Source of the DNA: Marsupella aquatica
Lineage: Eukaryota > Plantae > Marchantiophyta
Assembly (NCBI GenBank): GCA_973895155.1
Contig: OZ316896.1
Location: 3,224,001-3,288,000 of the forward strand
Length of the DNA: 64,000 nt
Reading direction: 5' to 3'
Positions 1,718 through 50,894 of the stretch are shown piece after piece (position 1 is the stretch's first letter; each line of letters begins with the position of its first letter). The notes below the pieces were generated by a model. It searched no databases. It had not been told where the DNA came from and saw nothing but the letters and a program-made list of their open reading frames with translations. The position numbers were made by a program, and so were the translations under genes.

Positions 1718-3163
1718 TGTCGGATGCCAAATTAGGTAGTAGTTTTAACTAAAGTTTAAAATGGACTAACTATAGTTAGAAGTAACCCCAATTAGAAGTA
1801 GACATAAGGTTAAAGTAAGTAAACTGATGCACAATGGGTCAAGGAGATTAAGTAGGGATAGTTAGGAAGGTCTTAGTTAAAGTCTAGTTGAATTAGGATA
1901 GGTTAGGAAATCTCAAGAAGTAAAAGTAGAAAGTGACAAATGGTCTACTCTGCAGAATTATAGAAAAGTCTCCAAATAGAGTTAAACCTGGAAATCAAGT
2001 AAGTAGATAGTCTTAGGTTCAAGGGACACACTGGCAAAATTTCAGACAAAACAGAGGGCAAGGCACAATGCTGGAGATTTATGAAACTAGAGCTTTGTTA
2101 TAAGTACACTTAAGACGGGATACCATAGAAGTAGGGGTGAGTTCTGAGTACAAAGCAAGTAGTGCTACGGGAGTTTGTCTAGCAGCCAGGTGTCATCATG
2201 GGATTCCTTCTCATAAGGATACAAAATGCAGGGAAAATCTACGTAGAAGCCAAGGAAGGAGCAGCAACAATCAGGCAAAAATTCAAGGGTGTAATTAAGG
2301 GAAATGAACATCGTTCTATAAGGACAATGTGAATTGACTTGGGAGAAGCGAAGGAACCACAGAAATTGCCTGAAGGTAAGGCATGAATTGAATTGAGCTA
2401 CTGGGAGAAACTCTGTGGTGTTGGAAGGAACTCTTGGGATAAGAAAATCTCATCCCCCGAGCAATCTAGTGGTGGCAAAAGATTCAATTTCGTGCCGCTG
2501 CAATTGAAGCTTGGTTGCTAATGCGGAAATTGTTGGTAATTGCCTGAAGCTTTGTATTGTTGGAGTCCGCTGCTGGGGAACTCACTGCTGAAGAGAGTGG
2601 TGTTGTGCTGCCATTGAACTCGTTATGGCCGGGGTTATGGCTGCTGCGCTATTGAGAAGTCCTGGTCCTACTTCACTAAAGCTTGATGCTGCTAAAGAAA
2701 ATTTGATCCTGCTACTCGTTGCTACTTGAACTTGAAGCTGCTGTCCTGGACTTGCTACTAAATAAGAGAAGCTATGTTGCTTCTATGCTGAGAATTGTGG
2801 ATAGAGCATACTGCTGCGAGCTTCTCAGTAAGCTGCTCCAGTGCTGCTGAGTAGCTATGGAGAAGTAGAGCTTGGGAGCTAGGCTGATAGAAGTCAATGT
2901 TGCGGAGGTGAGCTTGCTGATTTATGAGCTATGGAGTAGCTGCCAAGGAGAGCATGAAGCAGCAGCACTTCATCGCTGCTCGCGACTTGTGAAGGGAGGA
3001 GAAAAAAATTGCATTTTGCGAGTAGTCTTCGCGAAAGGAGGAAAAAGGGGTGGTCTTTGCCAAAACTTACCTGGTAGTTGGCTGTCGGCGGCTGGGCTTG
3101 AACTCGCGACCTGCTGTTTGCTAGGGACTTCATTCGGGATACCAACACTAGTAGAAACCGGGG

Positions 3164-3540
3164 GGTATTTAGACCCCATTAAACGACTATTCAGTACCGT
3201 ATAGGACTTGGAAACGACTGGGAAGGACTCCAGTCCTTTATAGGACTATGAGTCGTATGTTTTGTTACTAAAATCAACTGAGTCCTTTATAGAACTGGTT
3301 TATAAGTCGTTTTATAGACTGGATTTTCAGTCTATTGTAGTCTTTGTGTGGGTAGGTTTGGTGAGTCTTTTTCAGTCTTTTATGGGCTGCGATGGTGAGT
3401 CGTTGGGAACAACTCAAAAGGTTATGGAGGGTAGTCTTTAAATATACTTTGTGGGTTTATAAAACGACTAAAGTAGACACTTTGTGGGGGTTTATAAAAC
3501 GACTAAAGTAGACACTTTGTGGGGTATGTACAAGTCTTTC
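3164..3540. repeat. CACTA left subterminal repeats (GACT/AGTC motifs, ~36-bp tandem duplication)
   Basis: Recurrent AAACGACT, AGTCCTTTATAG and AGTCTTT motifs; duplicated CTTTGTGGG..TTTATAAAACGACTAAAGTAGACA at ~3447-3525. Related AGTCTTT motifs at 19300-19420. Confidence 0.7.
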
Positions 3541-4046
3541 ATGTCAACTGGAAATGAGTGATGAAGACCCCACTATACTACTTGGAATGAACTCACTCTT
3601 GTGCACAAATAACACATTTCATTCATGTTTTATTGTGTACTTGGAATGAACTCACTCTATAAGGTCACCATTCACCATGTTAACATTAGAACCTCACACA
3701 AATTTTCAGAAAGCCATCTTCTATACCATGTACACTAATATGAATTCACAGATTCAAACATCATAGACTACAAAGAAGGTCACAAAGCATTCGTCTATAC
3801 CATACACACTAATATTGAATTGATACAAAACAGATTCAAGTATCATAGACAATCACCATAGAGCCATAGTTTGACATCAATCACTTGTTTCATACATACA
3901 GAATTCAGAAATATCAATGTCACACACAACGGCTCCTTCATCCTCTTTACCAAATGGAAAAATTGGTACAGATATTTCTTGGATTTTTCCAAGGCAATGT
4001 CAAAATGTAACACAATTCACATGATTCTATCTACACTTGTATTCAG

Positions 4047-6787
4047 TCACTGCAGACTAACACACTCTGATGGCCAGAGCACAAGAGATCCTACTGCATC
4101 TGCAATTATTTCTTGAGGTGGATCATCGTCTCTATTCGGAAATGGCAAATTACAATCAGATACAATCACTGTAGTCAACAACACTACTACATGGTCATCC
4201 GGGACCACTTTGCCATGGAATTTAGCATGATCCGGTCGCAAAATGCCTGTACCCACACATACCTGCGAGTCATTCTCCCATGATAGAAGATTATGGACTG
4301 GCTCTGCTGTGGCTATCACCTCCACCTTACCCTGGCTGTTTTTCTTGGCTTTCCTGGGTGGCTTATACATGACATTATTCATACCTTGGTTGCGAGTCAT
4401 GACTTTGGCACGAGTGTTTTGTGCTGGTGATCGAGAATTGGCTACACTCTTCTTCAAAGAATCTGCATCCATATTTGACACTTCCGATTGTGTAGCAGGA
4501 TTTCCCTGCGACATCATCTCAGTATCTGCTAACATTGTACTTGCTTCAATTGAAGCATCTACAATCTTACTTGCATCCAATGTTGCTCCCAAGTTTCGAC
4601 GTCGCTTCACCCTGCTCCCACTTGGTTGAGAGTCTGTCAACTCTGCATCAACTACAATTCAATGCATTGTCCAACATAAGTGAATCACTCATCACATGTG
4701 CGCCATGTACATGTCACCATCCACAAAGTTGTCACTATCTCCTTACCATTATGAACAGCCTTCTTCCCCTTCTTTGCCATTGCCATATCCTCCATGTCTG
4801 CTTCTGCTGATCAATAAACAGACCACAAGATTCAGGTTCAATCTATTAACCACTGAATTGTTTCTCAACAATGGTAGGAGAGGAATTTAAAGCATCAGCT
4901 TACCTGATACCTCCTTGGCTATGGTCACTGAGGCACTGGGCACATCTTTTTCATTGCTCTTTGAATCACCTGATACATCAATCATGATGTCACTTCAGTT
5001 CCCAGTTTATCCAACCAATTCTTACAGAAAAGATTACCTCCAACCGGCTTAAGCTTCACAAAACTCCATGCACTTTTCAAATGTAATGTACTGGATCATA
5101 GCAGGTTACTTGTCTCAGGAACCTTTTTGCCATTCTGCTTACTGATTACAGGGTCCAGGTTCTCTGCCTCCACTCTTCCTACATTCAAACCATTCACTCA
5201 ATTCATGAAAACTTACTTCTAACATTTGAACATAGGACACAATGAACAATGGGCCTCTCTTGTTTCAAAATCCTCATTGCATACCTGTGTCAGATTTGCC
5301 AATTCCCTTTTTTGTTAACAAGGGCACACTTTGTACAATGTTGCCCTCATTGTTTGGTTGGGAACCACCCAATTTTTCAATCACAAGCTTGAAATTAGAT
5401 TCCACTGATGCAAGAAGGTTCGCTACAGATGCCTCCACAATATCCAAACGATCAGCCAATTTACTTTCCACTCGAGGGAGTCCACACTCTAATGACTTCA
5501 ACCGTTCAGACATCTCTGTGAGAGTTGTAACAGTTCCCTGTCATAACACAGTTTACATATCTCAGATAATTGTCCCCAAGAACTGGTTGCTTACTTCCTA
5601 CTACAATTCTTTCTGATGCTCAAGGCCAAATAGTCACAGAACATATAGAATTACAACATAATCACCTGTTTGGAAGTCACACTTGTCACCTCACTCCTTT
5701 GTTTCATGAACTCCTCTCTCACTTCTTGTGCTGATGGTTCTTCACCTGTCAATTTCTTCTGCAGTCCACATCAACATACATATGAATGAAACCAAGTGTT
5801 GATTGTCAATGAAAATGTAATAATGGTAGCAAGATGATAAGTTTGAGGCTTACTATCAGGCATGTCACTGCCTTACCAATTGTTCTTTCACTGGAGCATA
5901 ACTTCCTCTCCCAGCCTGTGAAAGGTGTTTCACTTTGCCTCGAGCATTTGACATCAGTTCACTCTTGCTCTGTCCAGCCTCCGACATGAACCCTTTGATT
6001 AACTGTGTCCATTGATCCAGTTCCAATGATGGGGGTGGTGGCATTCTCCTGTTAGAACCATTGTCTATCCACATCCTTTTCAACCTATGCCTTTCTTGTT
6101 TCAAAATCCTCATTGCATAATCTGATATGCAATCTTCAACTGGGCCCTTACCATCATTACCAACATAGTCCCACCGTTCAAGAATGTCCTTGCAGATAGC
6201 AGCCCAATCAGCTTTGTTCTGACTCCTAAACTCTGTAATGCTCAAATCTAACCAACGCAATACTTCTCCTCTTAGGTCAGAATGCCAACGGTTCTTACCA
6301 TCACATGTGGGAGTTATCCAACCTTCGGAATTCACTTCTACTTTACCAAATTTGTTACTGTCTCCTGCCTTGGTACTCCCTGAAGCGCTACTAGGTGTCC
6401 CTCCACGGCCTGGTGTCCCCCCACGGCCTGGGGTCCCTCCACGGCCTGATCTCCCCCCACGGCCTGGATTGCATTGTCCAAACCTCCCTGGAGTCCCTGC
6501 ACATTTACAGGATCCATTTACAGTCACTTACATTAGGTAAGTATGAATCATAAATCCTGCTGCCAAATATACACTGGACTTCAGAGCAATTCTGCAATGA
6601 CCAAGTTACCTCTCCCTTGGCGCATAGATGGTTCTGGACCACCTGTCCTATTGCTTTGTCTTGATGAATTAGGGCCGTTTCTCCCGCCTGTGAATGATTG
6701 CCGCCTATCTGAACGTGGATGGCCTTTGTTGTTTTCGTGATTGTCCCAATCAGAGTCTGCATACCAACAGGTACATGCCACACTCAT
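4047..6787 (-). CDS. CACTA TnpA/Ptta-like multi-exon DNA-binding protein (exon structure approximate)
   Basis: 5865-6527 has QWTQLIKGFMSEAGQSKSELMSNARGKVKHLSQAGRGSYA (Ptta/En/Spm signature) and GTPGRGG repeats. 4047-4640 has FHGKVVPDDHVVVLL..LPFPN..IADAVGSLVLWP (Tnp1/En/Spm C-terminal domain). Several GT-AG bounded exons lie between. Confidence 0.75.
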
Positions 6788-7408
6788 GGACCTGTAAGAT
6801 AAAATCTTTGCCCTAGCTACACATCAGATAAGTCCATATTGAGCTAAATCTCTACTACCATCACAAAATCACTAGCACAAGGCACTTACTTGTCCAATCA
6901 TCCTCCTCACCTTTCCATTGCCTCTGTACCCGTCTCTACCACGCTCTGGGTGTTCATATTCATCCCATCCATCTTCTGCTCCATCATAGTCATCATCATA
7001 ATTATCAGGCGTCCCTTGCCAATAACTCTAGCTCCTTCTAGGGTATGGATTATGTGATTTCTCTCTAGCTGCCCACCTACCTGGGACTTGATGAGGGCCC
7101 TGTGCATCCTGCACAGGTGCATTTTTCTGTGAGCCCCCTGCATCTGGGTCTCCATCCATATCCAATCTTTCCTCTTCACCCCACTCTCCAAGCCCCATGT
7201 CTGTCTCCATGTCATCACCCTCTTCCCCCATAGCTTCTGCACAGCACCCACAACCAAACAGGGAGAATCAGCACACTAAATTCAAAGTATCAATCAATTT
7301 CATGCATATCCAACTATCCTAAACATCATTCCAGGCAGCAATTCCCGTTCTGTGACTCTGTGCAGGTAGTCATCCTCAACCTCATACTTGCCAATCGCCA
7401 GCTGTTGC

Positions 7409-10400
7409 CTATTGCAAATCATCAACCTCATCATATTCCATTTGCCCAGGTTCATCATATGTCTCTCTCAATGTTAAGGGGATGTAGTCAGTCCCTGCCC
7501 GAGTTGGAAGTACAGTCTCATGACTAGGATGCTCGAATGCAGCATGGTCATCCAAACTGAACTCTACTTTACTTCCATCCATCCGCCTGTTCCGTGCTTG
7601 GCTATGGCATACCACCCTCCAGCCATGTGACTCCTCCACATCTGCAAAGAAAGCCTGTTCAACTTGGCTAGGGAAAACAAAAGGCTCAGACCATTCTGGT
7701 ACTCTGGACCTAAAATTGGCCAACAAGAACCCATCATGATCACGCTTCATGGTGGCCCTTGGTCTCTGCCACTCTGATTTCACCCATGATCCCTTCATCA
7801 ATATCACTGGGACACTTGTGTTACCATAATTCAACACCCAAATGTCGGTCAACTCCCCCACGTAACCCATCTTCATCCACCCCCTCTGTTCTTCAGAGGT
7901 TCTCTGCTCAAACACAGAAATCAAACCACAATCATATGATACACAATGGTCACCCTGCTCATCCCTCACTCGATAATGATTTCCATAAGCTCTCATCCAT
8001 TTGTAGGTCAGAATAGACAATCGTGGTGGCACAGATAGAAGATACAAATCCTTCTCCATATCTGGGTGATGTCTACTATGCTCTCGAATTGTCACCCGAA
8101 TCCACTGCTCGAACTGTGGGAAGGGATCCTGCTGCCCAGAGTGTGCAGCTTTTTGCATATCATATTCCCTGCAATATGAGGTACAGGCATAGTTAGGTCT
8201 AAACAACACATGACAACCTAAGATCACCCTTGGAACAGACAAGAAGCATCACAACAAAGGCAAGTCAATTCAATCACTCACCTCCACCATGGTTGCATAG
8301 GCTCTGTGTTTGCCAGCACATATGAATGAGCCTTGTCTCAAATCGCAACAGGCAGCTGAACAGCACGTCCCACACCTTCAACAACCTCGCCACTCACTCC
8401 ATCATCTTCACCAGATTTCCAAACTCTTGTCATAGCTTCACCAGACCCAGCCATGTACTCTGTTAGGAATCCCAACGTCTCATCCTTAATGTACCCCAAT
8501 GCCATGGAAGCCTCTGGCCTGTAGTATGTTCTCACATGACCTTTCAACAACTTCATGTATCGCTCCATAGGGTACATCCATCTGGTACTGACTGGCCCAT
8601 ACTGCCCTAGCTCTTCTACCACATGGATTAGGAGATGAGTCATAACATCAAAGAAAGCAGGGGGGAAGTATATCTCCAAGTCACAGAGGACATAAGCAGC
8701 ATCCTGCTTCAACTGCTCCAATCCTTGGGGATCCCACACTTTCACACATATACGGCGAAATATATTGCACAGTCGAAGAATGACATTACGGACTGGTTTC
8801 TGCATGAGACCTCTGAGGCATAGGGGCAGAATGTGCTACATCAACACATGGTAGTCATGTGTTTTCATACTGCCAAGTTTATTCTTTGTAATATGCTTCT
8901 TGAAGGCACCAGCATAGCCAGAGGGCACTTTCAGACAGCTCAATCTATACAAGAATGTCTTCCATTCATCCTGTGTGCACACATAGGGAGCTTGGAACTT
9001 GAGAAGTACATTGGGATTGCTTGCATGGGGCTTCAACCAAAGGTGAGGGCGAATCCCCTTCTGTTGCATATCAGCTCGAACTGCTCCTGTATCTTTCTCA
9101 CCCGACAAGAACTTCAGCAAGCTCTCACAAATATTTTTCTCAATGTGCATGACGTCCACATTGTGTTTGCTGGGCTCGAATTCCTGCACTCCACAAAGCA
9201 AAGAATTCAACAACAGAAACACTAATTAACCACATAGGAGGATTGTAACCAACATCAATCCACCATTGCTCCAATCTAAAATTGCAATCATACAGGGGCT
9301 GGAGGCTAAGTACATTACCCTCCAGTACTCCAACTCCAAGTCCATCAAGGTCTGTCTTTTCACACCGTGTTTCACCACTGGATCCTCAGGTTCTCGATCA
9401 GTGGCACTTCTCTTGTCCCAATCAGCCTTCCTGGCTGCCCACCTCAGGACTTGCTCTCTGGTGACCCTCTGTGGTGGGCCACAAAGCTCTGTTTTGTTGT
9501 TGAAGTGTGCAATTTGAGACCGTGTGTGCCTGTAAGGATGATCAATAGGCAGATACCTTCTATGCCCCTGAAATTTCATACTGTGCAGGGCATGCGACCA
9601 CTCACTTGTCACATTTTTCCCACATGGTGTGCACCCCACATAGCCCTTTGTCACTCGTCCAGATATGATGCCATGGCCTGGGTAATCTGCTATATCCAGC
9701 AAACAAATTGCATGCAGTCTAAAGGTGCTGGGTCGAAGAAGCCCCTTCAGAACATCATGGGTTAACACCCCTTCTATCCACAAAGTCTTCCACTCTTCCA
9801 CTGCTGGAGCCAACATGATATCTATGAATTGCTCGGTCACAGAAGCTGGTCCAGGGATTAACAGCACCATCATGACAAAACACCTCTTTGTAGTCATCCA
9901 TGGGGGAAGGTTGTAATTTAGCAGCGTAACCGGCCAACATGAATAACGGTTGTTTTTGTCTCCAAATGGGTTTACTCCATCCAGTGATAGACCAAATCTA
10001 AAGTTCCGCTTCTCTGCAGCAAACTGTGGCCACCTCTCATCAACAAATTTCCAATGGTTGGAATCTCCAATGTGACGCTGCAGGCCATCACTGCTCTTGT
10101 TATCAGGAGTCCATGTCATCAGCTTGGAAATGGCAGGGCATCTAAACAGACGTTGTAGTCTAGGAATGAGAGGAAAATGACGAAGAACCTTGGCAGGGTG
10201 TGTACATTTCCCTACATTCTTGTACCTGTGCTTACCACAATGAGGGCATGTCAATTTATCTGCATGCTCTTTGCGAAAGAGAACACACCCATCAGGGCAT
10301 GCGTCAATAGACACATAGTTCAGCCCAAGGTTAGACATCAATTTCCTAGCCTCGTACATACTTTTTGGAATTGAATTACCATCTGGTAACACATTTCGGC

Positions 10401-11109
10401 GCAGGAAGGTCAACAACTCTGTCACAAATATATTGGGAACATTGTGATTGCCATAGATGTTCAACAACAACACGACAAAACCCAGCTTGGAGTAGTTCGA
10501 CCCCTCGTAGATAGGAATGCAAGCTTCTTTGATGTGTTTTGGGCCCCCAAACACCCACTCCCTCTCTGCTGCACCTTCCCCAATGTCAAAGTCAGGTTCA
10601 GCTTGGCCGTCGCCAATGTGTGGCTGCGGTTCATTGTCCTCTTCTGATTCCACTGTGTCGTAAAAAGCATCAAGGTCTTCAAAAATCTCTTGAACCATTC
10701 TTGGGACATCCATCCCACCGTCCTCAGTGACTGCCTCTCCATCTCCATCTTGGTCATCCACGTTCTCATGTTGGACCCCAGGACCATCCTCTGCACAGTC
10801 TATGTCCTGCTCTACGTAGTCTCTATGCCTAGCTGTATTAGAATCCACAAAGTCAGCTCTCCACTCTTCATCAGAGGAGTCTTCTTCTGCTGGTACATTC
10901 CAAACCCTCCACCGAGGGTGCCTTTCATGCCGCAGCAGGTGAAGGTGCACAGTGTTCAAACTCAACGACTTGAATCCTTGGCACTGTGTGCATGGGCATC
11001 TCATCCTCCTACTCCTACCTTGGGCGGCCCGGGCTTGTTCACGCATCCACAATTTAGAATCATGATGCCTAATCCTAAATGGGTTGTGAAGAGGCAACCT
11101 TGGAGCCAT
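7409..11109 (-). pseudogene. CACTA Tnp2/TnpD transposase (transposase-associated Zn motif, Transposase_21, DUF4218- and DUF4216-like), two nonsense mutations
   Basis: CPCTQC, IDACPDGCVLFR, LRHFPLIPRLQRLF, GLSLDGVNPF, WPVTLLNYNLPPW, DVMHIEKNICE, FPPAFFDVMTHL, RWMYPMERYM, EPFVFPSQVEQAFF. Intron 9318-9184. In-frame TAG at 8836-8838 and TGA at 8338-8340. Confidence 0.93.
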
Positions 11110-11435
11110 CACTATACACACGCACTCAGCACCCTGTCATTTTATTATGCAAGTGAAAAATACACTTCCTGTTAAGGATTTCACCCCCGACTGTACTTGC
11201 CAAAATACGTAACGTTCCAAAAAAACAAAAAAACAAAAAATATAGGTGCCTGAGTCATGTACCTATTCTCAAGTGAATGAGACAAAATTCCTAAATGTTT
11301 GAGGGTGTCAACTCCTCCACTGTCCTCACATGTACTGCCTCTGCACGTACATCCATGACCATATCAGAGTCCAATCATGTATAGTCATAGACACAGGTGC
11401 CAGGTGCGAGACCGGTGTGAGATGTCCTCATCTTA

Positions 11436-11969
11436 CTACCACATCAAATACGGATACCAATCCTGTTGTCGATGCCACTCAGCCCTGAGGTACTCAGGCA
11501 TGTACATTAAGTCATCAAGGTCTAAACCCTGCTCATGCCATGGTGGTCTTCGATCCGTGCCTACAAGCAGTGGCAGTAGTGCCCTCCATGGTGCACATGT
11601 TGCTACCAAGTCCCTCCACTGGGTACTAATTAGTCTATATTTGCAGATATCTTGTGCGCCAGACACCACAAGAACCCTCGGCCAGACATGTGTAAGAACT
11701 ATATCATCCGCCAAATCAGGCAACAAGGAACCACCTACAGCATCGTGCTTGTCTAACTCATCTGCTGAAAAGTAAATGTCCTCTTCCGACTGTGCATCCT
11801 CATTCACCACAGCATTCACAACACATCCAAGGTCTGCAGGCATTATCTCGGATGGAGCTACACTCTGTCTGGTTACCAATCCACACAAGTAAGCCCAAGC
11901 AGTAGCCATGCACGATGCAACCCGTAGGAGGACCCTACATAGGGCCTGACGGTCTGGAAGAGGCAGCAT
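11436..11969 (-). CDS. F-box-like protein without a recognisable substrate-binding domain (CACTA cargo)
   Basis: LLPDLADDIVLTHVWPRV..DICKYRLISTQWRDLV fits the plant F-box pattern LLPGLPDD..L..L.RV......R.VS..WR.L. Intact and intronless; first ATG at 11969. Confidence 0.65.
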   Translation of the reverse strand: MLPLPDRQALCRVLLRVASCMATAWAYLCGLVTRQSVAPSEIMPADLGCVVNAVVNEDAQSEEDIYFSADELDKHDAVGGSLLPDLADDIVLTHVWPRVLVVSGAQDICKYRLISTQWRDLVATCAPWRALLPLLVGTDRRPPWHEQGLDLDDLMYMPEYLRAEWHRQQDWYPYLMW

Positions 11970-12145
11970 ACCCACCAAAGTCTTCAGCCAAACAGAGCCC
12001 AGCAAGTAGATTCACAGTCACACCCCACGCAGCAGGAAACAACAATCACTTCAACTGCGACCAACCATGACAAGATGAGTTAGTTCAAGGATCACATTTA
12101 TTACAAAATTGTGATTTATACAAAAATATGAGGGACTCCTACTCC

Positions 12146-12994
12146 TCACTCTCTCCCACCTTTGCTAAGCATACATCTCCGCTGAATCTTGGAGGGCCAG
12201 GCCTCAAAAATATCAAAGTCCCAAGCATTCTGTCGCTTCCCTCTAGCTGCTGATTCCAGAAGCCAATCAGGGGAAAGCACCCAAAGATTGTTGTTCATGA
12301 CAAAATCACGCACTGTTGTCTTAAAGAATTTTCTGCATATTTTCATGTATGACAGACCTACAACATGAGTGGAGGTTTCTGTTAGACTCTCCTCCACTGT
12401 CCCACCTAGCTCAACAACTATAGACTTGTACAATCTGCACTTAGTCTCCCCAATTCCTTCTTCTGCAAATACCACACTGAACCCCTTCATAATGGTATTT
12501 CTCTCCTTGCCATGCTCATTCAATATAGCATCTGCACGCATAGGATGGTGTCCTATGTTGACAACAGGTCCATATTGGACAGAAGCAAAGTTGGGTTTCT
12601 CTGCCGCTGCTTCATAGGCTTCCTTTTCAGCCAAAGCCTCTGCAGTGGCCTCCTCACTCTCCCACAACTCATATTGCTCAGTACTCTGTACACACCTATG
12701 TTTAACAGAATCGGTCAGCCAAGAGACTTCAACTACTTTTAGACCTTGGTTGGTAATGGCAGAATCAATGAAGGACCATGACCACTTGTTCATCACATCC
12801 AGCCATGTCCCCGCAACAACATGTGTAGTCTGTGGAGTGATGTCCTTGACTTCAGTCCCATGGAACTTTGAGAATCGTTTTTGTACGATTGACCAACTCA
12901 CTTGGGTGAACCCATAGTGGCCAGGAATCAAAATGGCTTTGATTCCAGCCAACAGAGGCGGGTGGTCAACCTTTGTACGTTTCCTAGAGGCCAT
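12146..12994 (-). CDS. Tandem BRCT-domain protein (CACTA cargo), 282 aa
   Basis: Two BRCT repeats: FHGTEVKDITPQTTHVV..VVEVSWLTDSVKH..EQYEL and LGGTVEESLTETSTHVV..VLSPDWLLESAARGKRQN. Basic N-terminus SRKRTK. Intact, with AATAAA about 50 nt past the stop. Confidence 0.85.
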   Translation of the reverse strand: MASRKRTKVDHPPLLAGIKAILIPGHYGFTQVSWSIVQKRFSKFHGTEVKDITPQTTHVVAGTWLDVMNKWSWSFIDSAITNQGLKVVEVSWLTDSVKHRCVQSTEQYELWESEEATAEALAEKEAYEAAAEKPNFASVQYGPVVNIGHHPMRADAILNEHGKERNTIMKGFSVVFAEEGIGETKCRLYKSIVVELGGTVEESLTETSTHVVGLSYMKICRKFFKTTVRDFVMNNNLWVLSPDWLLESAARGKRQNAWDFDIFEAWPSKIQRRCMLSKGGRE

Positions 12995-13592
12995 GTACAC
13001 ACGGGCCACCTAATCACTGCAGACCGGAAGATAATGCGTTCACCTGATAATCGGAGGGCCCTTAAAATGCTGCGTTTATAACTTGGTCCAGTCCAGTCGT
13101 CTGGTGAGTCTTTGCTCCGATTCCAAACGGGAGAAATATTGGGACAAACGTACTAGACACCTGCAAGCATGCACCTCATAGTTTGAATATGTGCCTTCAC
13201 AATATTGAAGGTGACAAGTGCAATTGTTTTGTGATGCCACATACAGATGTTATAAATGGGCAGACATTCAATGAGAATACAAAATGTTGGTACACTTTAA
13301 GGGAATTCTCGCAAATTAAATAGCCTTGTAACTTATATGCTCATAATGAGAAGTCCTGATTTAATTTAAGCAGTGTCATGTAAGTCGTGATCAAAATGAT
13401 TGCAGAGTTAAAAAAGTTCCTAGAAGGCTTAAGGGGAGTTTTTGAAGGCATGTACCCAGGAACAAGTAATGAACTTAGGGTACTTGTTGCCTAAGCATCC
13501 TCTCCTACAGAGGTCCTTCTTCTCAAAATTGGAATGTCTGCAATCTCCAAGGTATCCACATCAGGTGCACTATGCATGTACATTATTCAGGT

Positions 13593-14262
13593 TCAAAGCC
13601 AAGAAATGTGATCTCTCATGGGAGTGTGCAAAGTAGGATCTATGGCATGGCGATGACAATAGAAGATCCATCGATCAACACCATGTGCAGAGTGATCATA
13701 GATGTGTCTGTCACAAGCATAGCCTTCTGCTTGACGCTCCTTCAAACAATGAAAGTGCCACATGGTGGGACACCTAACACAGTGGACTATGTCCACCCAG
13801 AAATCTTCATCGTGCTGACCACATGCCTTGCACTTATGAAGTGGGCAAGCTGTGGCAAGATCGGGCAAACATGAAAAACAAAAGAACCTCACACAATATC
13901 TGTCAGGGCATTTCCTAACAAGTGGTGGAGCATCAACAGAGCCCTCATAAGACCCCAACTTCCCACACTGTGCACACTTAGCCTGCTTCTCCAAACAATC
14001 AGTGCACATCCAGCCTCCCTGGTGTGCCCACCCCTGGACAGTTGTTTTCTGCAGCAAGGTCAGACTCCGGGTTGAGGTGGAAATGCCTCATGCAAGGGCC
14101 CTCACATATGGCTAAGCCACCACCATCGTCACAAATGGCACAACAATGAGCTGCCTTCTGGAAAATCTGACTTGCGGAGAAGTTACTACCATCTGGCCCA
14201 ACTACACCTGTGTTGCTCACCTCTGTCCCCCGCTTCTTGGCTCGGATTTTAGGGCGTGCCAT
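13593..14262 (-). CDS. EDM2-like composite PHD-finger protein (CACTA cargo), one frameshift near 14010-14030
   Basis: CAICDDGGGLAICEGPCMRHFH..WMCTDCLEKQAKCAQCGKLGS..CPLHKCKACG..CVRCPTMWHFHCL..IFYCHRHAIDPTLHTPMRDHISW. This parallels the plant EDM2 PHD region as I recall it (CAICDNGG..CEG.CLRSFH..CPLHKC..CRRCPKSYHRKCL..LIYC..HEID..L.TP.RDH). Confidence 0.82.
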
Positions 14263-14931
14263 GCCTACGCATGAGACAGATAGTACAATTTAGCAGAGTG
14301 CACAGACAATACAATTTAGTGCAGTGTACAAAAAGTACAGTGTAGCATATAGACTAGAGTGGCAATTGCTACTGCAATGAAATGTTCACACACATGTGCA
14401 GAGTAGACATACTTTTTGGTTTGTTGAGCCCACACTAAAAACTGATCCCCTCGTACAATAGCTCCACCTACACCTCAATTTTGTGGCTATGATTCACCAA
14501 AGGAGATCTGCAACAAGATTTAATGCATTTGAATCACATATAACAGTCGTGACATGTAAAACAGGCATTTTTTGAATAGGATTGGTATCAAGCACTGTGA
14601 TCAGGGTTGTAATTTATACATCCTAAATAGGCTATGATAGTGAATGAGACAAATAAGTTAGGCATAAATCACTTTTTCCAGGTTATCACATGGCCCATTA
14701 ATTCCAGTCTTTGAAAGAAGACTTTTAAGTGAGCTTGCTAGCCTCTTAAATTAGGATATTGTACTTAGTGCAGCCATAATAGGATAAGTTATGTACTGTT
14801 GACCCTAAACCCTGGACCCAAAATTGGTCATAATTCAAAATCTTAAGTAAATATCCTCTCTGTTCAAGTCAAAGTGTTAAGTTATAGGTCAATGGTCTCT
14901 GGTTTGTGCATGCGGTGTGACAAGTGGTCCT

Positions 14932-15381
14932 CTAGAGCGTGTGATCCAAACATGTGTAGACACCAAAGTGACCGGTGGTGGGGTCTGGGAGGGCAGGACA
15001 AGTGACATCGCCAGGCACACTGCAGGATGGCGAGTGGTTCCAGATGATACATTGTGCTCTGTGAAAAAACCGACATCCAAGAGAACGGTCATCCAACTCT
15101 AGGCCAGAAGCCCTACAGGCAGGACAGTCATATTGGCAACTGTGCACACACCCTTGGGCCCTAATTTGTGGCGGGTCATGTACTAGAGACAGAAATACCA
15201 AGGATGTTGGGAAGGGTGGAGAAGCAGGTACAGGCCGGCTGTAGTTGTTCCTGGCAACAACTGGGTACTCAAAGTACCATGCAGACTGGGCTGGAAGGAT
15301 CCCAAGTCTGACATACTCAAGGCGCAACATCTCTGCCTTGCGTGCAAGCCGCACATGTTCAGCGTTGCGGGTCCTCACCAT
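14932..15381 (-). CDS. Hypothetical Cys/His-rich protein (CACTA cargo)
   Basis: ATG-initiated 149-aa ORF, co-oriented with the other cargo. Contains CVHSCQYDCPAC, CRFFHRAQC and a basic N-terminus MVRTR. No family recognised. Confidence 0.45.
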   Translation of the reverse strand: MVRTRNAEHVRLARKAEMLRLEYVRLGILPAQSAWYFEYPVVARNNYSRPVPASPPFPTSLVFLSLVHDPPQIRAQGCVHSCQYDCPACRASGLELDDRSLGCRFFHRAQCIIWNHSPSCSVPGDVTCPALPDPTTGHFGVYTCLDHTL

Positions 15382-17744
15382 AAGTGTTGCTTTTGTGGAG
15401 ATGTCGTGTGTTCACGTCCTCTGATAAGCACCTTCGATCAGCAAGGTGAGCAGGAGCTGTACTTGCCTCACCAACAACAACCAAACCTTAAATTATCAGT
15501 TCCCACTCACTGTGTCATTCCATTGGTTCCAGCTAGGGGTCACAGTGTAAACATAGCATGAAACACTCCTAATCAACTTGCTTACAAACTACAATATCCA
15601 GAAAGAGTGAAAGTCTCACCCTCCAGTGAGCAACAGAGAGGTAGTTCAGTAGATGTGTTGATGTGCAGTTAAACCTCCACTATTGCTTACTTCTGGTGTA
15701 TGCTGCTCAGAAGAAGACATATTAGTAGCAGCAAATTGCAAATAATGGCCATAAGCAAACCGTGAGAGTTTGCAGAATGCTACGACAAATCCATCACAAC
15801 AGTGCTCCACAGGAATGAAACCAAGCAAAATTTGGTGACCTCGGCCAATGACAAGGCCAATGTAGTGAACAATCCTTGACCGATCAGGATATGGATTGGA
15901 ATTACAATTAGTCAGCTCTTCTTCTTTGTTTTCTAACTCTGGGGGAAATGAGCATGACCAGGGAATTCTCTGAGAAATAGAAGAATCGCTAAGTACAGTA
16001 TTCTTAAGAGTAGTTTTGTTCTAATTCTGAAATCTACACATAGGACATTTATCATGAAAACTGAAGATCCATTTGACAACTCCATGATAGCCTATTCCGC
16101 ATTGTGTCCGCCCCATGCAAGCAAGGGGTATTCATCCGAGCTTAGTCTAACCATGCATGATTGTTCTGGAAGCAGTTGCGACAATGTTTTGGTTTTTTTC
16201 TCCTATCCAACTCAATAGCTCACAAACATGGCATTGGACCCATTAACAAATTATACTTGCCATCATTCTCAACTGTATTACATGGCCCACACTGCTAACA
16301 TCCCTGACTCTTAAGGGAAACTCATCTCCTGGGCCAACAACATCTCAGATTCTACAAAAATGAGAAACTATGAAAACTTCTTGATCTCCTATCCTGTGAT
16401 TGTAGCATGTATGATTTGCTGGGACTGCAGGCAGTTCTGGACCTTGCTGCGCTTTATATACAACAACCTGAGCTCCATGAATTTGTTTTTAATAGACATG
16501 CGTTTGACCACGGCTACAACTCCAAAACAATCACCAAATCAAATCATAACAAAACCCACTCGAAAGCTGAACACTAGAACACTGGGCACTGGGAACACAC
16601 TCAAACAGGTTCTGCAAGGATGGCTCTCTGTCGGATCGACTAGAGAATCAGGCAGGCTTCCTATTATGGTCTGCTCAGAGCCTTCCACTCTGGATTAGAC
16701 TCTGAATCCAAATGCGAGTCTACGCTTTCCGTTGCTGGTCACAACGACGGGCAATCAGGATGATGCCATGCCGAGTAGAAGAACAAGAAAGCATTCCATA
16801 AAAGGCACTGAGATGAACCGTATAGTAAAAGTGGTAGTACTTCCGGTAGCACGACCGACTCGCTATGTGACAGTCCAAAGAAAAGCTAAAAGGCTGAAAG
16901 GTGATAGATTTTGTGCTCAATGTGACAGGTTTTTTGAAATGATCAAGCCAAGGTGCAAAGGAAAACTGATTGAAGGTGACATGGGAAAGTTGTCAATGCA
17001 GGAGAAACTCTTGCCTTAGAGTAACCGTGTAACCAGGTAACAATGCAGGAGAAACTCTTGCCTTAGAGTGCTCGACGCTCCTTCAGCTGGATAGGGGCAG
17101 CTCCAACTACACGGTCTGGTCCAATCACCGCCTGCTTTGTTACAAGAAGGTGGACTAAGCCACAGCTGACGTCAATCACACTGTAAAAAATGGACAGATG
17201 AGCCATGTCACGAAAGCATATATAGTCATTCCTCAATATTAAATGAGACTATGAGAGGGCATATATAAGTTCACGACTAGGAAAGAGTCTCACCTTGTAG
17301 CACGGAGATTCTCAAAGCGCACCAAGATGAGTCATTGTAGCAGGTGAATGTTGGGTGGTGTCATGTAAGGCGCAAATCAATAGCTCGCTACCTCCTGTCT
17401 CCCCGTCTGTCTCCCGTGCACTTCTACCTCCCCGTCCGGCTTCCCGTCTGTCTCCCACGTACTTAAATTGAAGTTTTAACAAAAACTGTCAACACCAAGT
17501 GCAGCAAATGCCAACATATTCACACGGCAGAGCATAAAAGTAGTCACAGTTCATGAATCAGTTCCCTATCGAATCATGGGCACTACGCCGAGCACTGCGC
17601 AAGAGACTAGGATAGACACTGCAAACATGGGGACTTTTGTTTGGCAAGAAATCTGGACATCAAACCTTCAGCAATGGCAACAGGAAGCATTACATCAAAC
17701 GAGAGGACATCAAATGAGCAGTCCGGTTATAGGCAAACGGCGAC

Positions 17745-17807
17745 TGACATAGCGGAGGGAAAAAATGCGCATTGACATAGCGGACATGCGCACATTGACA
17801 TAGCGGA
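17745..17807. repeat. Three direct copies of TGACATAGCGGA
   Basis: Exact 12-mers at 17745, 17773 and 17796, in the CACTA 5' non-coding region. Confidence 0.85.
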
Positions 17808-20800
17808 GGGGAGAAAAACTACAAAGCCAACTAACCTTTTTAAGGCCCACAATTTCAAGGGGAGGGACAAAGAGAGCAAGCACTCCAATCTCTTCAATCC
17901 CTTCTGCAAGTAGCCGCCAAAATCTACTTCTTGGGGTCCAGCCCACGGATGGAGATCATGCAAGGTGGTCAATCACAGTAAGTGCAATCGTTGCAATCCA
18001 CAAACAAGCTGCAAATGAAGACACGCAGGAGGGAAAGTCCGCAACACCAACAACATTACCCTTTGTAAAACCCCGAGCTTATCTTCTAGTTGCCAACGCT
18101 CAAACAAAACCTGCTCGGACACTACCAAAACCCTAATTCCATAAGCTCTCACCTTTGCGACACAACTCCTGCACTATATTCAGCTGGCGTTGGCCCACTC
18201 TAAGCTCCCAAGCTTCACTTTAGTCCGCGCCGCGACTAAAGTTTCACTGCCTCTGTGAGCTTTGCAGTCCACCTTACAGATCGAACAAAGCAATCACCTC
18301 CCTTCACATCCGCACTAATCACCTTTCGCAAAGAGTTGCAATCACCTTCCGCAATACCAGGAAGCTTGCTCCCTCTCGTTCAATGCCTTCTGCAGCATGA
18401 GCGATCACCTCTGCCGAAGCAACTTCAATCGAACACACAGCAACGGGGCGGGCAGCGACAACATTGACAGTGAACGATGGACTCTACTCAAACAACCTCA
18501 AAGCTGTCACAAAAGAACGAGGAAACATTGAGGCAGAAAACAAAGTCCCTAGCGCTAGGCAACCAAAGTATCGGGAAACCAAAGGATCGGGACCAAAGGA
18601 AGGGACGACATGGCATTCCAACAACGGGAAGGGGGAACGGGACGCGGGAACGGGCAATTTTTTGATGGTGGGGATGGATGCCAACGATCCAATGGTCCCT
18701 AAACCCCCATCCCCTTAACATGCAACCCCCGACCCTTCACATCAAACCCCCCCTTAACCCCCTTTAGTGAAAACCCAGCCACCCCCTAGCCTTGACATAT
18801 AAACCCCCTAATGTGCTTAGGACAACTCGACTGTGGCCACACTATGTTTGCAATGCCAGGGTCATCCATTTAGAGCGCCGCTTGCAAGCTTTGGTTCTCA
18901 AGATCCTCCCAAGGCAGCAAACAAGTTAGGGTTCACGGTCCATGTTCCTTTACCCTAAACCGTTGCGTCACTATTTCAATCGAGTGTTCTTCGGCTGGAC
19001 GTGCCCCTTTACTGACCCACACCCCCTTGAGACCGGTACAAATCTACCTTTGTGCATCTCGGCCTTTTATAGATGGATTTAGTAATGGCCAAGAATATGT
19101 TGACCATCCCTCTGTAGTCCACCCTCCATGAACCTCACTTCATTAAACCCAAAATCTTTTTGGTCACAAAATAAGGCCATTTAATGAGTTATGCCCCTTG
19201 CTATCACCCTCTTTATAGAATTACCCCTCCTCAGCATAAGTGGTCATTACCCATGATGTGCTAGACTATTCATCCTTCACAAAGTAGCAAGGTTACTTTT
19301 CATAGTCTTTTAGTGAACCATAAAACACTAATAGTCTTTTGTAGTCTTCAACAAAACCGGTGCAATGGGTATGAGTTGTTTTAAGTATGGAAAAAGGACT
19401 TAGTGGGCTTAGTCCTATAAGGTATGGTCTAAATTGCCCCGGTTTCTACTAGTGCAAGGGAGCGTTCTTAGCTCTTCGTTTAAGAAGTTTGTAGCAACTC
19501 TACTTAACCTTGTGGCAGCATTGGTTCTGAGCCGTTTGAAGGACTTTGAGGCCGGGTCTAGGCCAGCAGGGGGACCAGGGAGACCAGAGGAGGGCCCAGC
19601 AGGGGTGCCTCAACTTCATGGAGGCCCGGGAAACCATTTTTTATCCCAATAGGATATGCTAAGGAGTTTTCATGAAGGCTTGAAAACCACTATTTGTAAT
19701 AAGTTGTCGGGCTATTATGAAGCCCAACACTTGAGGGGTGCTGGTATACGATGAGTTGTTGCTAGATAGCTCAGCCTTGCACTCGCATAGTAGCCATAGA
19801 ATAACTGCTAATGCCAACATTCTAGTTGGAACCAACTCAAGCGACAGTTGTACTATTCAGGTAAGTTTACAACTGTGTAAAAGCTGACCTGTACTTTTGT
19901 GGTAACCCGAGTCTCAGCGGCAAAACCTGTGACTCAGTGGTAACCTGAAACTCAGTGACGTATTAACCCTCAGTTGTAGGTCAAACTTGGAGTTGATACC
20001 GTGAGAAATATTGTGTTCAGTTAGTTTACAACTCGCGCGGTTAGTTGTAAGAGTTACCAAAGGGGGTACCCTGGTTACTCGTCTTGCCGAGAGCTAGGTT
20101 GCCGCTGTTCAGGTCTTGTGTGGAAACCAGAGTACTGGTTGTAGTTAAGTTAACCTGCGGTAAAATAGAGATTTAACCCGAGTTAAACTTTAGCAAGAAA
20201 GTAGTAAGTTTGCCGTAACTACTAACCTGAGTTAGCACCTTAGGCTTGGTTTGGTTTGGCGTGGGTTTGGTTTGGAGCCCTGAGGTGTAGAAATAAAGAG
20301 GAGAAGCAGGGGGCTGTGTTCTCACTTGTTTAGTTGTCCACTTTCTTAGAGGCTGGGAGCTTGGGGGCTGGGCTCTTCCTTGGAGAGCAGCAGCATGAGC
20401 TTGAGGCACTAGGAAGGGGGGAACAGTGAACTAGTCCACTAGGTAGGCAGCAAGGAGAAGGTCAAGGGAGGTGTTGTGATCTGAACTTGTTTCTATTCTC
20501 TCTAGTAAAGACTTGCGTGTAACCCTCAGTCTTGAAGCAGCTGTCTAGTGAGATGTTGAACTAGTGAGCATGTATGTGGACTCAGGTGTGATTTGATATC
20601 GGAGAGATGAAGCTTGAAGCTTGAGATGAGAGCAGGGTCAGCACTTGTCTTGTTGGGATAGCAAGTGGTAATCCTGCAGTCCTTTGTGAAGGAAATAGGG
20701 TACTCTCTTGGGTGACGATTAAGGAGTGCAGGGACAGCTTGTGGGTGTCCACTGCCCGTGTTGAGATCGGGAGTGGGGTGTTGGGAGTGTTTTCCAGTGG

Positions 20801-21027
20801 GAGAGCAGGGGAGTGATAACCACCCTTCAAGGTTATCTTTCCAGCGGTGGAAGTAAAATTACCCAATTGGGTGTGTGAGTGAAGAAGAAGAGAGAGATTA
20901 AGGGAAAGTGACCTACTGTCCTACTATTTGCCCGTCCTAGGAATCCGGACAACGATAAGAAGGGGCAATAGTGGTAGATTTAACTCTAGTGAAGAGTTAA
21001 GCCCCATTGCAAGGTGTTGACACAATG

Positions 21028-21407
21028 GCACTCGCTTGATAGTTCGTGGTTTTGGGCGTCATGTCATAGATGCAGAAATTATCACAAGGAAGAACATCGG
21101 AGATCGTGTTTTTATTCCACGCATTCCTCTTATTGCATCTGACTCAGGGTTACCATTCGATCTTTGACGATTTTAGTTTCCTATCCGTGTTGCCTTTGGT
21201 ATGACCATCAATAAGTCTCAAGGTCAAACCTTGGCAAAGATTGGGATATTTCTACCAAACCCGGTTTTCTCGCATGGTCAATTATATGTGGCATTGTCTA
21301 GGGTTGGTGCTCGGAGTGGCATTCGCATTATGATATCAAGGAATGCATATCCTGATAAGCATGACCTTTACACAAGGAATGTTGTATACCATGAGATTTT
21401 GAGATGA
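21028..21407 (+). pseudogene. Helitron helicase, final exon
   Basis: GTRLIV..RVFIPRIPL..FPIRVAFGMTINKSQGQTL..VFSHGQLYVALSRV..TRNVVYHEIL. In-frame TGA and TAG around 21166-21177. Confidence 0.93.
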
Positions 21408-22262: not shown

Positions 22263-23313
22263 GTAATAAAAATGGAGAAGCCTGGGACACTTTCCCTGTT
22301 ATATATATATATATAATATAATATATATAAGGGTTCCCCTTTATATATGGGTAGTGAAGGCAATGGTGGCCCGTGGATCTAAAATAATGGCACATGCTTT
22401 GCAAGTAAGGAATAATTCAACAAATGTGCATGCACCAAACTAACTTGAAGAATTTAGGTTTTAGTATAAACTACCGTTCATCACAAAGTAGAGTTTTATC
22501 ATGCGTATGCACGAAAGCTGAAGGTCACACGGCTTAAGGGCTTATGTTTCGATCTATGTAATCAGGGTTGCTAATTTTGTTGAGCGTTCAAGTGTTAGAG
22601 AGAGAGATATTGTAATTCATTACACCCAGTGAAGGCCAAGTCAATACTGCACTTTAGTCAGGTCATAAACTAGTTATGTCCACATAGTATTGGGCATACA
22701 CCAAGTCATTCACTTGCAGAAATCATAACAAGTTGTCAAACAGGTTATAGTAACACACAACAAAAATGTACATACAAGCCATGACCAAGAAAGAGTTTTG
22801 TTGCAACTTAAAAATGTGTATAGTTATCATATAAAATTCTCAGAAGGTTCAGGAAATAAACAAAGAGAAGGTTGATGTATTGTAGCTGTTACTCTAGCGA
22901 AATCATAGATAAGACAATAGACAAAATACTCTCTAAACAACATGCATGTAGCCTGTATATATAATATAATTGTATATTTAAAGAACATGATAAAGATCCA
23001 ACTTGTTAGGTCACAATAACAAGCAAAACTTCAGAATTGGTTAAAAGGTGTTAGTAACAAGGCATACAGTCACTAACAATAGACAAAAATGTATGCAAAT
23101 GCCTAAAAGAAGAGTTAATAAATTCCCAAAGGGAATGAAATAAAGATACGCCATACAAATGGAGATAAGCCATCAACCCAAGTTAAGCTGCAATTGACAA
23201 GCTAGTGCTCCATTGCATCCCCAGGGTCATCATTCAGCCCCTGTCCCTAGGGTGAATCAAACCTTAAATAAAAAAAAGATTCAGATTGTTATGTGTTTCT
23301 GCTACTTGCAGCT

Positions 23314-50518: not shown

Positions 50519-50894
50519 TGTGATGCCTAGACAGGAATCACTCGGCCAGTTAAGTGGGTAAAGCAGGAAGGCACCCTAGGAACACCTTAGTATAGGGACA
50601 AAACAAGGAAAATATAAACAATTAGGGGCAACCATGGAACCCGGGCCGAGGCCGGAGGTAAGGACACTGAGGGTGAAAACTCGATTAGGGTTAGGGCGCG
50701 TTAAGCGTCGGCGGCTAGGAAGGATCAACGGGAAGAAGGACCGGCAGAGGAGAGGGGTAAGGAGCGCTTGCAGGAGATGGTGGCTCATTTGCGAGCACGA
50801 ACTAGGCAGACGACTACGGGAGGCCAACTACTGTCAGCTGCTTAGGCAAGCACTCGGGGAGAGAGTAGATACCGACGATCGACCTAAGGAGGGT

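What the first reader, a model, noticed from the sequence alone, without database searches (positions are those of the whole stretch)
13593..14262. Stand-alone EDM2-like PHD cassette inside a transposon
Seen: Cys/His spacing and the C-terminal IFYCHRHAIDPTLHTPMRDHISW match the EDM2 PHD region as I recall it. The ORF has its own ATG and a basic NLS-like start (RPKIRAKKR) and stops right after the cassette, lacking the other EDM2 domains. Established: Arabidopsis EDM2 reads H3K9me2-containing marks and, with ASI1/IBM2 and AIPP1/EDM3, promotes full-length transcription across heterochromatic introns. Inference: the TE version could shield or decoy H3K9me2, promote read-through of its own silenced locus, or steer integration. 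This copy has one frameshift in a G-rich tract near 14010-14030, either decay or a sequencing error.
Basis: partly seen in the sequence, partly recalled or inferred. Interest (0 to 1): 0.82.

Follow-up and report, generated by a model that had tools for sequence, protein, structure and literature searches.

The report
Transposon-borne EDM2-type triple-PHD protein
A plant cut-and-paste transposon carries its own small gene for a three-zinc-finger module related to the host chromatin protein EDM2; this copy is broken, but intact relatives form a conserved family that likely binds chromatin for the transposon's benefit, probably not in the way EDM2 does.

Summary
Real, and larger than one ORF. 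The minus-strand ORF (14262-13593) lies inside a complete 16.3-kb CACTA element (3146-19454; 18-bp TIRs, 3-bp TSD). It sits in a cargo row with a Cys-rich ORF, a tandem-BRCT gene and an F-box-like ORF, ahead of TnpD. The break is an 11-nt deletion at 14028/14029, not a one-base slip. This copy is decayed: TnpD has two premature stops. Intact siblings exist (82% and 78% identical), and 19 of 23 aligned relatives are full-length, 206-245-residue stand-alone proteins. At 43% mean identity they keep 508 of 516 zinc-ligand cells, so the fold is under selection. The closest long proteins are EDM2-type (113-146 bits against 49-56 for NSD2/3), but trees do not fix the donor. The family is not EDM2. 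It has no RFD or methyltransferase-like domain, has Cys for His in PHD2 (23 of 23), and lacks the acidic patch before PHD1 (0 of 21 against 74 of 77). H3K9me2 reading and read-through therefore cannot be assumed. Best reading: an element-encoded chromatin adaptor. No RNA data. Transposon context is shown only for this subfamily. New variant of a known kind; interest 0.6.

The parts
3146..19454 (-). Complete CACTA (En/Spm) element, 16,309 bp, all genes on the minus strand; decayed copy
   Evidence: 18-bp perfect inverted termini starting CACTA, 3-bp TSD CAA on both sides; next-best CACT[AG] pair matches 9 bases
3146..3163 (+). Left TIR; TSD at 3143-3145; short subterminal repeats follow to about 3520
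19437..19454 (-). Right TIR (5' end relative to the genes); TSD at 19455-19457
14029..14262 (-). Triple-PHD gene, 5' part: basic N-terminus and most of PHD1
   Evidence: (PF23011)
13593..14028 (-). Triple-PHD gene, 3' part: end of PHD1, PHD2 (His-to-Cys variant), PHD3 (C4HC2H), EDM2-type tail, stop
   Evidence: (PF22908, PF23004)
14028..14029 (-). Site of an 11-nt deletion relative to intact siblings; translated as is, this copy gives 87 residues
   Evidence: X2 record 8 spans 13963-14149 with 198 letters for 187 window bases and 11 gaps (gap position not printed)
14265..14266 (-). AG 2 nt upstream of the ATG; possible splice acceptor for a 5' leader (inferred, untested)
14932..15381 (-). 149-aa Cys/His-rich cargo ORF of unknown family
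   Evidence: no Pfam, NCBIfam or Atlas hit
12146..12994 (-). 282-aa tandem-BRCT cargo ORF, uninterrupted
   Evidence: PF00533 E 1e-13, two stretches; weak BRCA1 BRCT hits, E 0.025
11436..11969 (-). 177-aa F-box-like cargo ORF (weak assignment)
   Evidence: PF00646 E 0.1, below cut-off; no PDB hit
7409..11109 (-). TnpD transposase, multi-exon, with stops at 8836-8838 (TAG) and 8338-8340 (TGA) inferred to be premature
   Evidence: PF02992 E 2e-59, PF13960 E 7e-28, PF13952, PF13963
4047..7215 (-). Multi-exon accessory gene in the TnpA position; exon limits approximate
   Evidence: PF03004 E 0.009, below cut-off; frames
1718..21022 (.). Host site: about 3.0 kb TG...CA element (solo-LTR-like) split by the CACTA; 5-bp TSD CAATG at 1713-1717 and 21023-21027; it in turn splits a decayed Helitron-type PIF1 helicase gene
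   Evidence: PF05970 E 1e-25

Best explanation
This is a broken copy of a conserved, single-exon triple-PHD gene carried inside a CACTA transposon, whose intact product is likely a nuclear chromatin-binding adaptor that would tether the element's own proteins to nucleosomes. Shown: the element, the cargo row, the 11-nt deletion, intact siblings, and a divergent family that keeps its zinc ligands. Inferred: old capture of the PHD cassette from an EDM2-type plant gene, nuclear import through the basic N-terminus, and binding to nucleosomes. Also inferred: with no catalytic or RNA-processing domain, it acts by bridging chromatin to TnpD, the accessory protein or the BRCT/F-box-like cargo, so as to choose insertion sites or keep the element accessible. 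Its mark preference probably differs from EDM2's. I put the descriptive part (real, selected, element-borne in this subfamily) at about 0.85 and the adaptor mechanism at about 0.45.
For: Element anatomy. Intact siblings of 226 and 220 aa; none of 41 differences between the window copy and P0001 hits one of 24 ligands. Family alignment A6: 19 of 23 rows full length; mean pairwise identity 0.43; ligand cells kept 508 of 516 against 1283 of 3254 other cells. PHD1 starts at residue 26-55 in 21 of 23 rows and 20 of 23 end within 10 residues of the tail motif. One clade, 100/100 (11 family rows of 43). Model pLDDT 78.8, pTM 0.74; best matches are histone-binding PHD arrays, with low TM-scores of about 0.2. 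Four of the 6 listed sibling SNPs in the ORF are synonymous (p about 0.04 at 25% expected; only the 40 best-supported of 870 differences were shown). Contigs of 4 of 4 laid runs (3 studies, 3 organism labels) cover all 30 bins of 11000-19600. None of 20 family proteins looked up has an informative name or UniRef entry, against 9 of 10 non-family homologues, as expected for repeat-masked genes. Precedent: CopiaMBD (PMC6673714, abstract).
Against: No binding, expression or partner data. Transposon context is shown only for this subfamily. The one other locus fetched (L001, 1495 bp) shows no transposon gene, and no listed contig bridges the PHD gene and TnpD. The acidic patch before PHD1 is lost (0 of 21 against 74 of 77) and I see no aromatic-cage Trp, so histone-tail binding may be weakened or gone. 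Whether the commonest near-identical subfamily is intact at the deletion site is open: an 11-nt insertion was not among the 12 of 166 indel rows shown. Insertion-site evidence is one site (nested repeats), which selection alone could explain.
Confidence: 0.45

Rival explanations
1. Decoy or shield: the protein would compete with host EDM2-type readers for H3K9me2 chromatin or for their partners, weakening silencing of the element.
For: It is the reader module without effector domains, the classic dominant-negative build. EDM2 changes H3K9me2/CHG levels at Mu1 and COPIA4 in opposite directions (PMC3632883, passages).
Against: A mimic should keep the host surface, but the family changed it: acidic patch lost, PHD2 His to Cys, about 20-residue insert lost. 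A sequence-blind decoy would benefit all transposons; the known systems VANC and TnpA are sequence-specific.
Confidence: 0.2
2. Read-through factor: it would recruit ASI1/IBM2 and AIPP1/EDM3 to the element so that transcripts pass the cargo row and reach the distal TnpD and accessory genes.
For: All genes lie on one strand, with TnpD 8-12 kb from the 5' TIR, and an AG lies shortly upstream of several ATGs. The AAE complex favours distal poly(A) sites in heterochromatin (PMC7472560, passages).
Against: RFD, ELP/methyltransferase-like and Pro-rich regions are absent. Some Arabidopsis En/Spm families express TnpD and TnpA from separate genes (PMC13547354, passages), so read-through is not required. 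AG before ATG is weak evidence. The EDM2 region that binds AIPP1 could not be checked (primary papers not held).
Confidence: 0.1
3. Non-histone role: the fingers would bind a protein or DNA, for example in a ubiquitin or DNA-repair module with the F-box-like and BRCT cargo, acting at excision breaks.
For: Loss of canonical H3-tail contacts; neighbouring BRCT and F-box-like ORFs; RING-like weak fold matches for PHD3 at Z about 3. Some PHD fingers bind non-histone proteins (PMC3241642, passages).
Against: The F-box call is below cut-off. The RING matches dropped out with the better model. Neighbourhood alone shows no shared function.
Confidence: 0.13
4. Neutral passenger: a Pack-CACTA-style captured fragment that decays without function.
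For: This copy and L001 are frameshifted; many family hits are truncated; CACTA elements do capture host fragments (PMC13317346, passages).
Against: 98% ligand retention at 43% mean identity, family-specific fixed changes (23 of 23 against 0 of 132), conserved start and stop, no close host donor among 150 hits.
Confidence: 0.07
5. Host gene family: the small proteins would be ordinary single-exon host genes of an under-annotated plant lineage, one of which was picked up by this CACTA family.
For: Context is unknown for all but the window's subfamily; L001 shows no transposon gene in 1.5 kb.
Against: No annotated proteome entry among 20 looked up; frequent broken copies; many diverged copies in the laid runs.
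Confidence: 0.05

Closest known systems
Arabidopsis EDM2 and land-plant EDM2-like proteins (AAE complex)
   Same: Three NSD-type PHD fingers in the same order, terminal C4HC2H finger, and the tail motif after PHD3 (18 of 23 family rows, 98 of 132 other hits). Highest profile scores among long proteins.
   Different: About 220 aa, single exon, no RFD or ELP/methyltransferase-like domain, basic rather than acidic region before PHD1, PHD2 His to Cys, shorter PHD2, transposon-borne.
Liverwort EDM2 paralogues with a C-terminal PHD cassette (P0011 Calypogeia fissa, P0013 Riccia sorocarpa)
   Same: Best non-family scores, 129-146 bits, apart from P0010, whose score is inflated by internal duplication; several also stop 5-6 residues after the cassette. 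A shared clade is not rejected (p-AU 0.35).
   Different: 619-768 aa with a long N-terminal part; keep the PHD2 His and insert; not grouped with the family in the free tree.
NSD1/2/3 PHD1-3 cassette
   Same: Same three Pfam models; NSD2 matches profile positions 16-164 at E 5e-14.
   Different: Score 49-56 bits, no match to the tail, no PWWP or SET domain in the family.
CopiaMBD retrotransposons (PMC6673714, abstract) and Rehavkus PHD transposases (PMC6446971, passages)
   Same: Host-type chromatin reader domain carried by a transposon; integration steering proposed for CopiaMBD.
   Different: Other element classes and domains; the Rehavkus PHD is part of the transposase. Here it is a separate gene in a plant CACTA element.
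VANC (Vandal) and TnpA (En/Spm) accessory anti-silencing proteins
   Same: Non-catalytic accessory genes beside a plant DNA transposase (passages).
   Different: They recognise DNA motifs; this one is a PHD module with no known DNA-sequence specificity.

Membership tests
EDM2 | Tandem atypical PHD fingers ending in a C4HC2H unit | tested here: met
   24 ligand positions in three fingers, last one C4HC2H; definition from PMC3776765 passages. Ligand assignment is from alignment.
EDM2 | Tail motif after PHD3 (Y-C-x-x-H...T-P...H-I) | tested here: met
   18 of 23 family rows, 98 of 132 other hits, 0 of 3 NSD-like rows; motif defined here from the alignment
EDM2 | N-terminal RFD (PF12047) | tested here: not met
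   Only 26-55 residues precede PHD1; PF12047 found in 9 of 53 scanned hits, all long, and in no family row. A spliced upstream exon is not excluded.
EDM2 | PGR, ELP (methyltransferase-like) and Pro-rich regions after the PHDs | tested here: not met
   Stop follows the cassette in the window and within 10 residues in 20 of 23 rows; domain list from PMC7529245 passages
EDM2 | Acidic residues just before the first Cys of PHD1 | tested here: not met
   D/E at -1 to -4 in 0 of 21 family rows against 74 of 77 long hits (84 long hits, 7 not parsed)
EDM2 | Nests inside the land-plant EDM2 clade | tested here: inconclusive
   Outside it in the free tree; p-AU 0.13 with all EDM2 rows, 0.019 with seed-plant-type rows, 0.44 with NSD-like rows; long stem, LG+G4 only
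EDM2 | Binds H3K9me2-containing tails | not testable with these tools
   Needs peptide or nucleosome assays
EDM2 | Binds AIPP1/EDM3 and, through it, ASI1/IBM2 | not testable with these tools
   Host orthologues not available; no genome held
NSD methyltransferases | PWWP and SET domains | tested here: not met
   No such Pfam hit in the window pieces, P0001 or P0002
CACTA/En-Spm superfamily (carrier) | TIRs starting CACTA and 3-bp TSD | tested here: met
CACTA/En-Spm superfamily (carrier) | TnpD transposase domains | tested here: met
   PF02992, PF13960, PF13952, PF13963
Autonomous CACTA copy | Uninterrupted TnpD | tested here: not met
   Stops at 8836-8838 and 8338-8340
Pack-CACTA passenger fragment | Recent host fragment without selection on the protein | tested here: not met
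   No close host donor among 150 hits; ligand retention 508 of 516; dN/dS itself not computed
Transposon-encoded chromatin readers (CopiaMBD-like) | Insertion bias matching the mark that is read | tested here: inconclusive
   One site, inside nested decayed repeats

The most novel reading that the evidence does not exclude
An old lineage of plant CACTA elements encodes a kit of stand-alone adaptors: a re-tuned EDM2-type PHD reader, a tandem BRCT, an F-box-like protein and a new Cys-rich protein. Together they read host chromatin marks and DNA-break signals to aim and protect transposition. This would be a mark-guided counter-silencing and targeting system, distinct from the DNA-motif-guided VANC and TnpA systems.
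Probability: 0.25. Interest if true: 0.85.

Novelty: new variant of a known kind. Interest (0 to 1): 0.6.

Why it matters
Known plant DNA-transposon accessory proteins recognise DNA motifs. A conserved, separately encoded histone-reader-type gene in a CACTA element would be a second route, through chromatin marks, and would make target-site choice of plant cut-and-paste elements testable. The family is also a natural minimal variant of the EDM2 PHD cassette: about 200 residues, confidently modelled, with defined changes. My PDB sequence searches found no EDM2 structure. It could show which residues give EDM2 its mark preference.

Tried and rejected
Sequencing error at the break: rejected as unlikely. 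The gap is 11 nt, not in a homopolymer, and the copy carries other lesions: two TnpD stops, and 12 of 17 hand-picked copy-specific differences are C-to-T, 9 of those 12 in CG/CHG context. Raw reads were not seen.

No RNA holder listed. No whole genome held, so no copy count, no dN/dS and no host EDM2. A closer look at sibling contigs across the break was not obtained; the state of the dominant subfamily stays open.

A word-based search for longer homologues of P0001 found none among 190 candidates; the full HMMER scan did find them. Context searches: metagenome contigs gave 0 of 102 stretches with A4 and 1 of 155 with A5; viral contigs gave 0 of 45 and 0 of 33. Genome contigs (prokaryotes) was not scanned.

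Donor identification by tree failed; rows were hand-picked (79, then 43, of the stored proteins). ORF149 had no hit in Pfam, NCBIfam or the Atlas. No complex prediction was sent. Three look-ups of earlier findings returned nothing.

No description of such a cargo turned up in paper searches (0 papers) and 110. 'PHD' occurs 0 times in the main texts of PMC13547354 and bioRxiv 10.64898/2026.08.24.746577; their supplements were not seen, and Repbase was not searchable. Lei 2014, Duan 2017, Lai 2019 and Tsuchiya 2014 were not held.

Full report
Observation. It is in two frames. Pfam finds the NSD-like PHD models PF23011, PF22908 and PF23004 in order. A search with the 3' piece found 2 proteins among 2 candidates of 90-287 residues, P0001 (226 aa, 82%) and P0002 (220 aa, 78%), both uninterrupted. 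Against them the window lacks four residues and keeps one spare base, an 11-nt deletion at 14028/14029. One contig of run X2 spans the site with 198 letters for 187 window bases and 11 gaps. As it stands the copy would give 87 residues.

The carrier. An 18-bp perfect inverted repeat starting CACTA, with a CAA duplication, bounds 3146-19454; the next-best CACT[AG] pair matches 9 bases. From the 5' end, all on the minus strand, come a 149-aa Cys/His-rich ORF with no family hit, the PHD gene, a tandem-BRCT ORF (E 1e-13), an F-box-like ORF (E 0.1, weak), TnpD (PF02992 E 2e-59, PF13960, PF13952) and a spliced accessory gene. TnpD has an in-frame TAG at 8836-8838 and a TGA at 8338-8340 between its domains; I infer both are premature. 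Of 17 differences I picked as specific to this copy, 12 are C-to-T and 9 of those lie in CG or CHG context. CpG observed/expected is 0.37 in the element against 0.71 and 0.86 in two host-like genes. So this is a methylated, decaying copy, and the deletion fits decay better than error. The element sits in a 3.0-kb TG...CA element with a 5-bp duplication, which itself splits a Helitron-type PIF1 gene. Contigs of 4 of 4 laid runs (3 studies, organism labels A, B, C) cover all 30 bins of 11000-19600 at many levels of likeness. Depth there is no copy number, and no listed contig bridges the PHD gene and TnpD. The host is a land plant; its lineage was not determined.

The family. A profile of P0001 and P0002 against 1.84 billion representatives gave 252 hits; the best 150 were listed. 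By my sorting 18 are family members and 132 are not, 84 of the latter 700 aa or longer. A second search gave 27 hits among 706 candidates. Alignment A6 holds 23 members chosen for length; fragments were left out. Nineteen are full length, 206-245 aa. Mean pairwise identity is 0.43 (range 0.28-0.91), PHD1 starts at residue 26-55 in 21 of 23, and 20 of 23 end within 10 residues of the tail motif. The 24 inferred zinc ligands are kept in 508 of 516 cells, other positions in 1283 of 3254; none of 41 window-to-P0001 differences hits a ligand. Four of 6 listed sibling SNPs in the ORF are synonymous, while 4 of 4 in the BRCT ORF change the residue; both samples are small. These proteins come from gene calls on short contigs, so an upstream spliced exon is not excluded, and their context is unknown. 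The one locus fetched, L001 (1495 bp), holds an intron-free relative with its own frameshift and no transposon gene in view. None of 20 family proteins looked up carries an informative name or UniRef entry; 9 of 10 non-family homologues carry a source name.

Relation to EDM2. The long hits include proteins named ENHANCED DOWNY MILDEW 2 (P0014; the short P0022 is named EDM2-like) and Marchantia, Ceratopteris, Calypogeia and Riccia proteins; 9 of 53 scanned carry PF12047 RFD. With the A6 profile the best 45 non-family proteins score 113-146 bits, liverwort paralogues with a C-terminal cassette first (P0010, 178, is inflated by duplication). Human NSD2 and NSD3 score 49-56 and miss the tail. The tail motif occurs in 18 of 23 family rows, 98 of 132 other hits and 0 of 3 NSD-like rows. 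The family is one clade (100/100; 11 of 43 hand-picked rows, LG+G4) on a long stem outside the land-plant EDM2 group. AU tests reject only a union with seed-plant-type EDM2 (p 0.019; group named after the tree was seen, 2 of its 7 long rows have a verified source). They do not reject a union with liverwort paralogues (0.35), all EDM2 rows (0.13) or NSD-like rows (0.44). The donor is unresolved; score and tail favour an EDM2-type gene.

Fixed differences. The fifth ligand of PHD2 is Cys in 23 of 23 family rows and 0 of 132 others. The PHD2 linker is 7 residues in most family rows against about 27 in most others. An Asp or Glu within four residues before the first Cys occurs in 0 of 21 family rows and 74 of 77 long hits. 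A review states that PHD fingers reading unmodified H3K4 use an acidic cluster at that place, sometimes also for R8 and K9 (PMC3241642, passages). EDM2's PHD fingers are reported to bind H3K9me2 and other marks, and EDM2 joins ASI1 through AIPP1 (PMC7472560, PMC4980392, PMC11265718, passages). The primary papers were not held, so I could not check which finger or region does what. A model from A6 is confident over the cassette (pLDDT 78.8, pTM 0.74; residues 1-26 low). It matches PZP and NSD PHD arrays (Foldseek E 1e-5, TM about 0.2; VIA Z 5.0, rmsd 2.7 over 75 residues to NSD2 PHDvC5HCH). A shared fold shows no function.

Mechanism. Shown: a selected, stand-alone triple-PHD gene inside a CACTA element, dead in this copy. 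Inferred: nuclear import, nucleosome binding, and benefit to the element. A module without effector domains can work as a tether or as a competitor. I favour the tether (0.45). The family remodelled the surface that a mimic of EDM2 would need to keep, and a reader linked to the element's own proteins gives a benefit specific to the element, as proposed for CopiaMBD (PMC6673714, abstract). Decoy (0.2), non-histone or repair module (0.13), AAE-type read-through (0.1), neutral passenger (0.07) and host gene family (0.05) are the rivals. No partner or mark was tested.

Known and new. Reader capture by transposons is known (CopiaMBD; Rehavkus PHD, PMC6446971 passages), as are plant accessory genes (VANC, TnpA; PMC13317346, PMC13547354, bioRxiv 10.64898/2026.08.24.746577, passages). 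Searches listed no paper describing an EDM2/NSD-type PHD gene in a CACTA element. Subscription papers, Repbase and the supplements of those two 2026 surveys were not seen and may bear on this. Other papers seen as passages: PMC3776765, PMC7529245, PMC3632883, PMC10852260, PMC10241880. Verdict: works like a transposon-captured chromatin reader; not a member of EDM2 or NSD; new variant of a known kind; interest 0.6.

Noticed in passing
window 11436-15381: Four stand-alone cargo ORFs in a row ahead of TnpD (Cys-rich ORF149, PHD, tandem BRCT, F-box-like). In ORF149, 3 of 5 listed sibling SNPs are synonymous and the other two share one codon; in the F-box-like ORF 2 of 2 are synonymous.
   Followed up: partly
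window 290-1717, 1718-21022, 21023-21400: Three-level nest: Helitron-type PIF1 gene split by a 3.0-kb TG...CA element (TSD CAATG), itself split by the CACTA.
   Followed up: yes
window 18946-19104: Contigs of runs X1 and X2 skip 157 nt whose ends read CT..AC on the plus strand, which is GT..AG on the element's coding strand, near the 5' TIR. Leader intron or deletion derivative; run type unknown.
   Followed up: no
proteins P0022, P0028, P0045, P0047, P0050, P0066, P0098, P0116, P0136: A second group of short (270-386 aa) EDM2-PHD proteins; one is named EDM2-like in Miscanthus. They nest among seed-plant-type EDM2 but split, so may be independent truncations. Context unknown.
   Followed up: partly
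proteins P0011, P0013, P0017, P0048, P0058, P0061: Clade (100/99) of EDM2 paralogues, two of them named from liverworts, with the PHD cassette at or near the C-terminus and no methyltransferase-like region; candidate donor of the cargo.
   Followed up: partly
window 46051-46782 (-) and about 62060-62100: Germin-like cupin gene (PF00190 E 4e-34); a 38-nt inverted match near 62062-62099 suggests a second copy or remnant.
   Followed up: no
window 42199-42627 (+): STIG1-like secreted Cys-rich protein gene (PF04885 E 8e-14).
   Followed up: no
window 62646-63998 (-): 451-codon open frame with an AIG1-like GTPase domain (PF04548 E 3e-8), running to the window edge.
   Followed up: no
window 23310-23521 and 30167-30378: Long inverted arms (60-89 nt, 78-83% complementary) about 6.9 kb apart; possibly inverted LTR-like copies or another element.
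   Followed up: no
window 48650-50520 and 50580-53156: An 18-19-nt pyrimidine-rich tandem array followed by long plus-strand ORFs (401 and 346 aa, coiled-coil-like, no firm Pfam hit).
   Followed up: no
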